From contig OZ249447.1 of NCBI GenBank assembly GCA_965235115.1, positions 7,750,001 to 7,814,000 of the forward strand: a DNA stretch of 64,000 bases. The letters run 5' to 3'. Positions 1 to 3,000 of this stretch are shown here, in pieces. Numbering within the stretch: the first letter of the stretch is position 1; each line of letters opens with the position of its first letter. The DNA is from Laetmonice hystrix (Eukaryota). Position numbers: made by a program.

Positions 1-3000
1 ATGATCTGCAGTCATCCAGTATATTGACCCAGGTGTTGATGTGTTATATGACCCGCCAGTTACACCTACCATGATCTGCAGTCATCCATTGACCTAGGTG
101 TTGATCTGTTATATGACCCGCCAGTTACACCTACCATGATCTGCAGTCATCCAGTATATTGACCCAGGTGTTGATGTGTTATATGACCCGCCAGTTACAC
201 CTACCATGATCTGCAGTCATCCATTGACCTAGGTGTTGATCTGTTATATGACCCGCCAGTTACACCTACCATGATCTGCAGTCATCCATTGCCCCAGGTG
301 TTGATCAGTTACACCTACCATGATCTGCAGTCATCCAGTATATTGCCCTGCAAGCCGAGACAACCACCTTCGGGTCGTCCATATGCATCAACAGGGCTCC
401 AAAACACGTGTTATGTAGTGGGTCTCTACGGGAAATGTACATAATATACCGTCAGTACAAAAATGTTGGTTAATGGCAAATCTTTACGACACCTGATTAA
501 AAGTCATGCCTATCGTCTTTCATTAATGTCATTACACAAATTATTGTCCATGACCATATTAGCAAAGATCCAGCGAGAGTATTATTGTGTTGATATCCCA
601 GTTAATAACATTGAGTATATTTACTGAAGGAGCTGGGGGTCATCACCGATGTTGTACTGAAGGTACGGGCTGAGTTCTAACAGCTTGGCCAGAGCTCGAC
701 AACATGCTTCCTGGAACAAAAACAAATATAGTGAAATCAAAGCTCATCGAGTCAGTCAGGAATACCAACGCATCCCATCAAATTATACCCATCATTTAAA
801 CAGTATGAAATCTTGATTAAACCACCACAGAATGGCATGTTTGTCCTGATGGGACTCCGTACCTGAACATGCGCATCATCTCGATGACGGCTCATTGCCA
901 AGATAAAGAATATCTGCTTCAACCCATGTTTGTCCTGATGGGACTCCGTACCTGAACATGCGCATCATCTCGATGGCGGCTCATTGCCAAGATTAAGAAT
1001 ATCTGCTTCAACCCATGTTTGTCCTGATGGGACTCCGTACCTGAACATGCGCATCATCTCGATGACGGCTCATTGCCAAGATAAAGAATATCTGCTTCAA
1101 CCCATGTTTGTCCTGATGGAACTCCGTACCTGAACATGCGCATCATCTCGATGACGGCTCATTGCCAAGATAAAGAATATCTGCTTCAACCCATGTTTGT
1201 CCTGATGGGACTCCGTACCTGAACATGCGCATCATCTCGATGACGGCTCATTGCCAAGATAAAGAATATCTGCTTCAACCCATGTTTGTCCTGATGGGAC
1301 TCCGTACCTGAACATGCGCGTCATCTCGATGACGGCTCATTGATTTGAATATCTGCTTCAACCAGTTGATTTCATCGTCTTGTGTCTCTCCACTTCCACT
1401 CTGCCACATCTCCACTGACAATAATAACGTAACAGTCCACAAATATCTCATCAAGTACCCGTCTGCATTATTATTAATTTTTTATATCTCATACGACATG
1501 CGTGTATTTCCAATATTGCTAGCGCAGAATATACCTGTTTTATAGAATAAGTTGAATCCATGAGTCTGAATACGACGGTTCTCCATGAAGTTACGGACAG
1601 CGGTGAAGAGATTCTGTACGAAACTTGAGATGGACGTTCTCCTGAAAACGTTATCTAGAACACACAAAGGTCAGGTTTGGATGAGTCCTTCCAAGAAGTC
1701 ATCCCAAGGATTCTGTACCAAACTTGAGATGGACGTTCTCCTGAAAACGTTATCTAGAACACACAAAGGTCAGGTTTGGATGAGTCCTTCCAAGAAGTCA
1801 TCCCAAGGATTCTGTACGAAACTTGAGATGGACGTTCTCCTGAAAACGTTATCTAGAACACACAAAGGTCAGGTTTGGATGAGTCCTTCCAAGAAGTCAT
1901 CTCAAGGATTCTGTACGAAACTTGAGATGGACGTTCTCCTGAAAACGTTATCTAGAACACACAAAGGTCAGGTTTGACTGGGTCCTTCCAAGAAGTCATC
2001 TCAAGGATTCTGTACGAGGAGAGAAGGATCTGACCTTCTGAGACGAGGAGAGAAAGGTTCTGACCTTCTAACACAAGGAGAGAAAGGCTCTGACCTTCTA
2101 ACACGAGGGGAGAAAGGCTCTGACCTTCTGAGACGAGGGGAGAAAGGCTCTGACCTTCTAACACGAGGGGAGAAAGGCTCTGACCTTCTAACACGAGGAG
2201 AGAAAGGACGGTGAGGGTTGTCTCCAGGATTTCCTCGTCCTCCACAAACTGACCGATGACACGTTCCATAACGGCAGGCAGCTCCTCTCCAACCAATCTC
2301 GCCTCACCATCTTCTAACAGCAAATACACTCCACATTTTGGGTTCTTCAAAATCATCACCATTAACATCAGTTTTCAAATCCAGGATAAACATCAATAAA
2401 GTCTTGATGCCAACCCTTCAAATAAGGTTGATATGCCCGTTTTGTGTGATGGCTGTATCCGAGAAGTTGTAATGGTAGCCTTATAATTTACTTATAATAT
2501 GGTATGGCCATATTCTGACAATAATTTACTTAGGTAAAGCCATACCATATTCTGACAATACGTGCAGCAGTCGACAAGCCTCCAGTGTGACCACCCTGTT
2601 GTTGTTATGGTTACCAAGGGCAGCAGAAAACAAGTGAATATCATTGCTGCCAAGTAATTCCGCTCGTAGATCTGGCTCTGCATCATAATCAAAACAAAAT
2701 ATATGTTAATAATACACTTGAAGGTGAGGATGATGACGACAAACTCGACAACGTAAGTCAAAACGCTATGAGTGAGTAATGAAATGTAAGATTATCACAT
2801 AATATTTGTATTGTATATCGTGTAATTAATTGCCAACCATCTTGGATCAGACTGGTCAGAGTTCGACAGCCATCAGCTTGTGCCTCAGCATGATCAGGGA
2901 AGGCGGCCAAGGCTCGCGTTATGGGGCCAAGCGCCTCGCTGTACTTATACTGGAGTTTTCCTCGCCCTCCTGATGGCCCTTAAACAATTTTAAAAGGTAG

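What the first reader, a model, noticed from the sequence alone, without database searches (positions are those of the whole stretch)
2016..2207. Six in-frame alternative 5' splice donors spaced 30 nt apart in LRRK2
Seen: the 30-bp array duplicates the exon end GAAG|gtcaga six times (last exonic bases 2185, 2155, 2125, 2095, 2065, 2035). The frame stays open through all copies (ORF 1952..2368: LVLE GQSLSPLVLE GQSLSPLVSE..). Using any downstream donor adds whole 10-aa units into the ARM solenoid without a frameshift. Inference: a built-in dial for ARM-domain length, or a tolerated decoy set that survives precisely because it keeps frame. The vertebrate LRRK2 ARM region binds Rab GTPases (established), so insertions could matter functionally.
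Basis: partly seen in the sequence, partly recalled or inferred. Interest (0 to 1): 0.65.

Follow-up and report, generated by a model that had tools for sequence, protein, structure and literature searches.

The report
Splice-site-copying minisatellite in an intron
A 30-base tandem repeat has copied the end of an exon and its splice donor six times into the following intron, a known kind of "mirage" minisatellite that is most likely a tolerated by-product of DNA slippage rather than a device for changing protein length.

Summary
Six identical donors AAG|GTCAGA sit 30 nt apart on the minus strand, with last exonic bases at 2185, 2155, 2125, 2095, 2065 and 2035. The frame stays open through all of them.

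- The array abuts a 99-bp array (1610..2017) that copies the acceptor TTCTAG|ATAACG four times. The three upstream copies run into in-frame stops.
- Two more arrays in the same gene copy the donors of later exons, one of 89 bp and one of 65/135 bp. Both are out of frame or blocked by stops.

So keeping the frame is not what lets these arrays survive.

This is a known kind of structure: a minisatellite whose first monomer spans an exon-intron boundary. It is described as "mirages" in amphioxus genes and in human F7, IFI6, CBS, LMNB2 and PDGF. In those cases the most upstream donor is used alone or almost alone.

My best reading is slippage-born decoys with splicing from 2185 to 1654. Minor use of 2155 or 2125 is possible but untested.

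The LRRK2 identity is only weakly supported: one exon of seven matched, at E=1.8. The organism was not identified.

The parts
2014..2207 (-). 30-bp array. Each unit is the last 23 nt of exon E3 plus the first 7 nt of the intron. It gives six identical donors AAG|GTCAGA, with last exonic bases at 2185 (authentic, outermost), 2155, 2125, 2095, 2065 and 2035.
   Evidence: TRF; register and donor positions; chance test; open frame.
2185..2313 (-). Exon E3, 129 nt, phase 1 at both ends. Its last 23 nt form the first monomer of the 30-bp array.
   Evidence: Splice motifs located. Phases fit the neighbouring exons (my reading). There is no transcript or homologue evidence: 0 hits among 1.84 billion representatives.
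1610..2017 (-). 99-bp array. Each unit is the last 54 nt of the intron (branch-point-like CTGAC, pyrimidine tract, TTCTAG) plus the first 45 nt of exon E4. It gives four acceptors, with first exonic bases at 1951, 1852, 1753 and 1654 (authentic, outermost). The three decoys each run into in-frame stops.
   Evidence: TRF (4.1 copies, 98% matches); positions; stops.
1952..2034 (-). The 83-nt piece between the innermost donor and the innermost acceptor. It holds a broken 30-bp unit (21 nt, one base short) fused to the 99-bp array. The two arrays overlap by 4 nt, TCGT, at 2014..2017.
   Evidence: sequence of the piece; TRF coordinates of the two arrays overlap at 2014..2017.
1535..1654 (-). Exon E4, 120 nt. 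Its first 45 nt form the last monomer of the 99-bp array.
836..1342 (-). 89-bp array that copies the end of exon E5 (1414..1308) and its donor CAG|GTACGG. There are six donors, at 1308, 1219, 1130, 1041, 952 and 863. The period is not a multiple of 3, and a stop lies 10 codons behind the first donor.
   Evidence: TRF (5.7 copies, 98% matches).
1..311 (-). 65/135-bp array that copies the end of exon E7 (425..319) and its donor ATG|GTAGGT. At least five donors lie at 319, 270, 205, 135 and 70, and the array runs off the window. A stop lies 4 codons behind the first donor.
   Evidence: TRF.

Best explanation
This is a boundary-spanning ('mirage'-type) minisatellite. A 30-nt segment made of the last 23 nt of an exon and the first 7 nt of its intron was duplicated in tandem and then amplified, so the 5' splice site now stands six times in a row.

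A second array of 99 nt did the same to the 3' splice site of the same intron. This blew an intron of roughly 60 nt up to 530 nt, so that almost all of it now consists of copies of its own two borders.

I infer that both founding duplications arose by slippage at short microhomologies. The candidates are CCTT for the 30-nt unit and AGA(A)TC for the 99-nt unit. I also infer that a later fusion joined the two arrays at a shared TCGT.

Such duplications add only intron sequence as long as the outermost sites are used: donor 2185 and acceptor 1654. That would make them nearly neutral and explain why they persist where exon-internal duplications would not.

I expect the most upstream donor to be chosen, by 5'-to-3' scanning or exon definition as shown for human F7. 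The decoy acceptors should be ignored because no donor follows them. The in-frame, stop-free state of the 30-nt array would then be a coincidence with about a 0.3 chance.

What is shown: the anatomy, the frames, and the sibling arrays. What is inferred: the founding mechanism, and which sites are actually spliced.
For: Anatomy of the two arrays.

Only combinations ending at acceptor 1654 keep the frame:
- The three decoy acceptors meet in-frame stops.
- In the same gene, the decoy donors behind E5 (period 89) and E7 (spacings 49, 65, 70, 65) all lie behind stops.

A working gene must therefore pick the first donor in those arrays. All seven exons are open, and their phases fit at all six junctions.

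Of 5 variable sites among the five full 30-nt copies, 3 change the residue (L/P, L/S, S/N), as expected without coding constraint.

The interior copies share variants that the edge copies lack. The globin paper reports the same homogenisation pattern for amphioxus mirages (passages).

The intron RNA folds no better than shuffles, with z=+0.60 and 72 of 100 shuffles folding at least as well. Masking by RNA structure is therefore not needed.

The window is about 19% minisatellite by my addition of 19 arrays, so the mutational process is plainly active here.

A random-placement simulation on the collapsed gene model gives 0.30, 0.57, 0.69 and 0.74 for units of 30, 65, 89 and 99 nt to span one junction, given that they are not exon-internal.

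Precedents:
- Amphioxus Adh3, globin, TnC and PGBD5 mirages are reported to leave splicing normal (passages).
- In human F7 IVS7, 5 to 9 identical donors are present and only the most upstream is used.
- LMNB2 and PDGF behave likewise (abstract, introduction and discussion read).
Against: - No transcript data could be consulted, so exclusive use of 2185 and 1654 is inferred, not shown.
- All six donors share the same 9-mer, and five of the six share the preceding 23 nt of exon-like context. Nothing local marks the first one out.
- In human IFI6 and CBS the two pseudo-sites nearest the authentic donor are also used. Some use of 2155 or 2125 would not be surprising, and here it would escape nonsense-mediated decay because the frame stays open.
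- The scanning rule was shown in mammalian cells, not in this unidentified organism with its short introns.
- The exon model rests on open frames, splice motifs and phase fit only. E3 itself found no homologue.
- I could not check whether the copy number is a true allele, a polymorphism or an assembly effect.
Confidence: 0.72

Rival explanations
1. Leaky alternative donors. The first donor dominates, but the next one or two (2155, 2125) are used at a low constitutive level. This would give isoforms with +10 or +20 residues that are tolerated but have no selected role.
For: The frame is open through all copies, so such mRNAs would not be removed by nonsense-mediated decay. The donor cores are identical. 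[quoted passage not shown]
Against: There is no RNA evidence. F7, LMNB2 and PDGF use only the authentic donor. The first three decoy units code Pro where the native exon has Leu, so each insert would carry a Gly and a Pro just behind a predicted helix. That helix comes from a low-confidence model.
Confidence: 0.2
2. A selected length dial. The in-frame donors are used in a regulated way to vary the length of the helical-repeat domain and so tune partner binding.
For: It rests on the in-frame, stop-free state and on the position inside a helical-repeat region. One exon of that region weakly matches the LRRK2 armadillo region at residues 338-367.
Against: - The in-frame state has about a 0.3 chance: 1/3 for the period, times about 0.87 for no stop in the three new codons (my estimate). 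One open array out of four boundary-spanning arrays is what chance gives.
- 3 of 5 variable sites change the residue, including Leu to Pro.
- The same intron carries three decoy acceptors that would break the frame. That looks like mutational clutter, not design.
Searches were searches on mirages and boundary minisatellites and were not aimed at that question.
Confidence: 0.04
3. Assembly or haplotype artefact. The copy number, or the array itself, does not exist as such in the animal's genome.
For: Tandem arrays are prone to collapse or expansion in assemblies. The globin paper notes that one mirage was wrongly assembled in a draft genome (legend of additional file 4). The window has one N run at 40758..40923.
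Against: The copies are not identical: there are 5 variable sites among the five full copies and 92% matches, which argues for a real and somewhat aged array. Four arrays of different periods show the same boundary logic within 3 kb. In the PGBD5 case, resequencing confirmed such repeats.
Confidence: 0.04

Closest known systems
Amphioxus 'mirages': minisatellite-like tandem duplications of exon-intron boundaries (Adh3, globin BflGb6 and BflGb9, troponin C, PGBD5)
   Same: The tandem units span an exon-intron boundary, and both 5' and 3' boundaries can be hit. Unit sizes fall in the same range: 10-72 bp in Adh3, about 150-160 bp in the globins, and 60 and 108 bp in PGBD5. Splice signals are reiterated inside the intron, and interior copies are homogenised while edge copies differ (passages read).
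   Different: - Here a donor array and an acceptor array abut and together make up nearly the whole intron. Four such arrays lie within 3 kb of one gene.
- The organism is not shown to be amphioxus. The best matches of a sulfotransferase ORF are unnamed (79% identity), and named Branchiostoma proteins reach only 34-42%. In a tree the window groups only with unnamed rows.
- Normal splicing and length polymorphism, both reported for mirages, could not be tested.
- The founding paper (Canestro 2002) is not held, so I know it only through these two citing papers and from recall.
Human F7 intron 7 37-bp VNTR and similar human arrays (IFI6/6-16, CBS intron 13, LMNB2, PDGF)
   Same: The first monomer spans the exon-intron boundary, so the authentic donor is followed by identical pseudo-donors. 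In F7 there are 5 to 9 in all and only the most upstream is used. The pseudo-sites are functional but lose to a 5'-to-3' scanning rule.
   Different: - The F7 unit takes only 4 nt of exon, against 23 nt here.
- The splicing outcome here is unknown.
- The F7 work was done in mammalian cells with long introns, whereas introns here are 120-232 nt outside the arrays.
- The passages I read on the human cases describe donor arrays only. Here the acceptor of the same intron is reiterated too.
Intron gain or extension by tandem duplication across AG|GT (the Rogers model)
   Same: A tandem duplication that carries splice signals creates new intron sequence without changing the mRNA. The globin paper links mirages to this model.
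   Different: No new intron is created here. An existing intron is lengthened from about 60 to 530 nt.

Membership tests
Boundary-spanning minisatellite (amphioxus 'mirage' / human F7 IVS7 type) | Head-to-tail tandem array with a minisatellite-sized unit | tested here: met
   TRF gives period 30, 6.5 copies, 92% matches and score 311. The donor 9-mer occurs 9 times against 0.65 expected.
Boundary-spanning minisatellite (amphioxus 'mirage' / human F7 IVS7 type) | The first (or last) monomer contains a real exon-intron junction, so the splice site is reiterated in the intron | tested here: met
   Each unit is 23 nt of exon end plus 7 nt of intron, with six identical AAG|GTCAGA donors. The exon status rests on a seven-exon model with fitting phases and on one exon matching LRRK2 weakly. 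No transcript was available.
Boundary-spanning minisatellite (amphioxus 'mirage' / human F7 IVS7 type) | Normal mRNA is made: the outermost site is used and the decoys are silent or nearly so | not testable with these tools
   No RNA data were available. There is indirect support: the decoys of the three sibling arrays would break the frame.
Boundary-spanning minisatellite (amphioxus 'mirage' / human F7 IVS7 type) | Copy number varies between haplotypes or individuals | not testable with these tools
   Only one sequence of the locus is at hand, and no eukaryotic genome collection was open.
Amphioxus (taxon to which the name 'mirage' has been applied) | The window comes from a cephalochordate | tested here: inconclusive
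   Sulfotransferase ORF: best hits are unnamed at 79, 74 and 73% identity, and named Branchiostoma proteins reach 34-42%. In the tree it groups only with unnamed rows. SEFIR ORF: one unnamed hit at 53%. Exon E3: 0 hits.
LRRK2 | N-terminal armadillo region homologous to that of LRRK2 | tested here: inconclusive
   Exon by exon against PDB sequences, 1 of 7 exons matched. E5 residues 6-35 align to human LRRK2 338-367 at E=1.8, and 9 of the 10 listed hits are LRRK2 chains. E1, E2, E3, E4, E6 and E7 gave no LRRK2 hit at E up to 10. Pfam found nothing.
LRRK2 | LRR, Roc, COR, kinase and WD40 domains downstream | not testable with these tools
   The gene runs off the window at position 1, and only its N-terminal exons are present.
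Functional tandem alternative 5' splice sites | More than one donor is used in mature mRNA | not testable with these tools
   No RNA data were available.
Functional tandem alternative 5' splice sites | The inserted coding units are kept under coding constraint | tested here: inconclusive
   Among the five full copies there are 5 variable sites, of which 3 change the residue (Leu/Pro, Leu/Ser, Ser/Asn). This is as expected without constraint, but the sites are too few for a test.

The most novel reading that the evidence does not exclude
Splice junctions may themselves be preferred seeds of minisatellites in this organism, which has not been shown to be amphioxus. Four arrays and one two-copy duplication sit on junctions within 3 kb of one gene. 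This could point to a splicing- or transcription-coupled mutational process rather than mere survivorship. As a by-product, the one in-frame array might give real +10-residue isoforms of an LRRK2-like armadillo domain. My random-placement estimate for the four arrays is about 0.09, which is suggestive at most.
Probability: 0.1. Interest if true: 0.6.

Novelty: new member of a known kind. Interest (0 to 1): 0.3.

Why it matters
It shows how a busy tandem-duplication process and short exons and introns can fill introns with copies of their own borders.

It also gives a natural test bed: six identical donors, four identical acceptors, and two more donor arrays in one gene. That set could show how a spliceosome picks the right site among perfect decoys outside mammals.

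For annotation, such arrays are traps. A gene predictor can read through the open 30-nt array or pick a decoy site and report false inserts.

It is not evidence for a designed length dial in LRRK2.

Tried and rejected
**Gene identity**
- Pfam on exon translations found nothing meaningful.
- PDB sequence searches exon by exon gave only the weak E5 match.
- E3 against proteins of 80-2000 residues found nothing. LRRK2-sized proteins exceed that limit.
- E3 against 1.84 billion representatives gave 0 hits at E up to 0.001.

**Taxon**
- The SEFIR ORF, the sulfotransferase ORF and a tree of 35 rows all led only to unnamed relatives.
- The tree held the window ORF plus 34 of the 120 listed hits: 18 named rows and 16 unnamed rows, picked by me.
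- Rfam found no RNA family in the window.

**RNA masking of the decoys**
- Rejected: the intron fold has z=+0.60.

**Reading the array as coding**
- I considered exon E3 running through all the repeats, with the 83-nt inner piece as the intron. I rejected it because acceptor 1951 leads to a stop after 16 codons.

**Structure**
- AlphaFold2 on the contiguous read-through ORF, without an alignment, gave mean pLDDT 37.
- It drew helices only in the native E3 part and none in the repeats, but it is too poor to use.

**Splice-site scan of all arrays**
- The scan used a mammalian-type donor matrix recalled from memory. At my cut-off it scored even this gene's own donors below threshold, so it was uninformative.

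**Other arrays in the window**
- I inspected by eye 3 of the 15 arrays outside this gene (18194.., 37077.., 10704..). None showed an open frame leading in from the flank. The other 12 were not inspected.

**Not done**
Armadillo models with 0-5 inserts were therefore not made.
- Genome contigs holds only bacteria and archaea and was not used.
These include the mirage alignments of the globin paper and additional file 1 of the PGBD5 paper, and they may bear on unit structure.
- Canestro 2002 is not held.

Full report
**What is there.** On the minus strand, Tandem Repeats Finder reports a 30-bp array at 2014..2207 with 6.5 copies, 92% matches and score 311. Put in register, each unit is the last 23 nt of an exon plus the first 7 nt of the intron behind it. 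The 9-mer occurs 9 times in the window against 0.65 expected, and 0 of 100 shuffles reached 9. The frame of the exon stays open through all copies: the stop-to-stop ORF is 1952..2374, translated.

- The 30-bp array abuts a 99-bp array at 1610..2017 with 4.1 copies and 98% matches.
- Its unit is the last 54 nt of the same intron plus the first 45 nt of the next exon. The acceptor TTCTAG|ATAACG therefore stands four times, with first exonic bases at 1951, 1852, 1753 and 1654.
- Read in the exon's frame, each of the three upstream copies meets in-frame stops. Only acceptor 1654 gives an open message.
- Between the innermost donor (2035) and the innermost acceptor (1951) lie 83 nt. They hold a broken 30-bp unit fused to the 99-bp array, and the two arrays overlap by the four bases TCGT.
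- The 530-nt intron (2184..1655) is thus built almost wholly from copies of its own two borders. With the exon-derived parts and the extra copies taken away, about 60 nt remain.
- I infer that the two founding duplications arose by slippage at short microhomologies: CCTT at exon position -23 and intron position +8, and AGA(A)TC near intron +3 and exon +39. I also infer that a later deletion joined the arrays at TCGT.

**The same thing happens elsewhere in this gene.**
- I built a seven-exon model from open frames and splice motifs: E1 2978-2838, E2 2677-2546, E3 2313-2185, E4 1654-1535, E5 1414-1308, E6 710-625 and E7 425-319. The codon phases fit at all six junctions (my reading).
- An 89-bp array (836..1342) copies the end of E5 and its donor six times.
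- A 65/135-bp array (1..311, running off the window) copies the end of E7 and its donor at least five times.
- In both, a stop lies just behind the first donor, 10 and 4 codons on. The period of 89 is not a multiple of three.
- The donor of E2 has one partial copy 40 nt downstream.
- Of the four arrays, one is in frame and open. That is about what chance gives: 1/3 for the period, times about 0.87 for three new codons without a stop (my estimate).
- The three other arrays persist although their decoys would break the frame. Keeping frame is therefore not what lets such arrays survive.

**Why junctions.**
- About 19% of the window lies in 19 minisatellite arrays (my addition of the rows), so tandem duplication is very active here.
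- Exons and introns in this gene are only 86-232 nt long.
- A simulation that drops units of 30, 65, 89 and 99 nt at random on the collapsed gene model, and discards exon-internal hits, gives 0.30, 0.57, 0.69 and 0.74 for spanning one junction. The product is 0.09.
- Survivorship alone comes close to explaining the pattern, so a junction-seeking process is not needed. It is not excluded either.
- I inspected by eye 3 of the 15 arrays outside this gene, and none showed an exon at its edge.

**How it most likely works.**
- A duplication that spans a junction adds only intron sequence, provided the outermost sites are used. Those are the first donor (2185) and the last acceptor (1654).
- The E5 and E7 arrays force this choice if the gene is to work. 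I infer the same for E3.
- The decoy acceptors are followed by only 45 nt of exon-like sequence and no donor, which should leave them undefined as exons.
- RNA structure does not mark out the authentic sites: the intron folds no better than shuffles (z=+0.60).
- Among the five full 30-nt copies there are five variable sites, and three change the residue (Leu/Pro, Leu/Ser, Ser/Asn).
- Every unit codes a Gly, and the first three also code a Pro where the native exon has Leu. Inserts would therefore not continue a helix.
- An AlphaFold2 model of the contiguous read-through ORF was too poor to use (mean pLDDT 37).

**Comparison with what is known.** This kind of structure is described.
- In amphioxus, tandem duplications of exon-intron boundaries are called 'mirages'. 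They are reported in Adh3, globin genes, troponin C and PGBD5, at both 5' and 3' boundaries. Copy number differs between haplotypes or assemblies, and splicing is reported as normal (passages read in PMC3087553 and PMC3902484).
- In humans, the first monomer of a 37-bp VNTR in F7 intron 7 spans the exon boundary. Of the 5 to 9 identical donors only the most upstream is used. The others are functional but lose to a 5'-to-3' scanning rule.
- LMNB2 and PDGF behave alike, while IFI6 and CBS also use the two nearest pseudo-sites (PMC1557585; abstract, introduction and discussion read).
- The IFI6 and CBS cases keep a modest place for leaky use of 2155 and 2125 here.
- The new points are the pairing of a donor array and an acceptor array in one intron, and the density of four arrays in 3 kb.
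- The founding mirage paper (Canestro 2002) is not held.
- Searches found the word 'mirages' in this sense in two papers only. They turned up no report of such arrays in LRRK2. One search (LRRK2, amphioxus, armadillo, ortholog) was a listing only, and I opened none of its papers.

**Gene and organism.**
- I searched the model exon by exon.
- Of the seven exons, only E5 matched LRRK2. Its residues 6-35 align to human LRRK2 338-367 at E=1.8, and 9 of the 10 listed hits are LRRK2 chains.
- As a test of a hypothesis named in advance this is better than the E-value suggests: about 1e-5 per target, by my division of the E-value by the number of sequences searched. It remains weak.
- The other six exons gave no LRRK2 hit, and Pfam gave nothing.
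- E3 found nothing among 1.84 billion representatives or among proteins of 80-2000 residues.
- The rest of the gene lies outside the window.
- If the exons are collinear with the human protein without gaps, the E3/E4 junction would fall near residue 290. That is an extrapolation.
- The organism was not identified. The nearest relatives of two other ORFs are unnamed, and named Branchiostoma sulfotransferases reach only 34-42% identity.
- Nothing made me take the contig for human. Outside the arrays the introns are 120-232 nt, a fifth of the window is minisatellite, and the only LRRK2 match is a weak 30-residue stretch.
- The N run at 40758..40923 was left alone.

**Verdict.** It is a new member of a known kind, of modest interest. 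Its value is mainly as a natural splicing test bed and as a warning for gene annotation.

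Noticed in passing
window 2485..2565 (-): The donor of exon E2 (last exonic base 2546) lies in one arm of a 14-bp hairpin. The other arm belongs to a partial copy of the exon end 40 nt downstream. The fold is -19.3 kcal/mol with z=-2.66, and 1 of 200 shuffles folds as well. It might mask or present that donor.
   Followed up: partly
window 2014..2207 (-): Each 30-nt unit also carries an acceptor-like motif, a pyrimidine tract ending in TTAG, only 3 nt upstream of its donor. 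My crude scan flagged it 7 times. Whether it is ever used is unknown.
   Followed up: no
whole window: The density of minisatellites is very high. There are 19 arrays with periods of 15-99 bp and up to 49 copies, about 12 kb or 19% of the window by my addition of the rows. Examples are 38 bp x 28 at 8923..9989, 66 bp x 18 at 10704..11893 and 88 bp x 13.7 at 18194..19402. Every unit of the 88-bp array holds a strong donor-like CAAG|GTAAGA on the minus strand, but no exon is evident at its edge.
   Followed up: partly
window 6831..7910 (-): This open frame of 359 residues has a SEFIR domain (Pfam PF08357, E=7.9e-25). That suggests the cytoplasmic end of an IL-17-receptor-like or Act1-like protein. 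Its only relative found is unnamed, at 53% identity.
   Followed up: partly
window 52123..53139 (-): This single open frame of 338 residues belongs to the carbohydrate sulfotransferase family (hits carry PF03567). Its best hits are unnamed at 79-63% identity, and it forms a clade apart from the named CHST11-like proteins of many phyla.
   Followed up: partly
window 2838..2978, 2546..2677, 2185..2313, 1535..1654 (-): Exons E1 to E4 are 141, 132, 129 and 120 nt long. All are multiples of three with phase 1 at both ends, roughly one helical repeat per exon. Skipping or duplicating any of them would keep the frame.
   Followed up: no
window 40758..40923: A run of 166 N.
   Followed up: no
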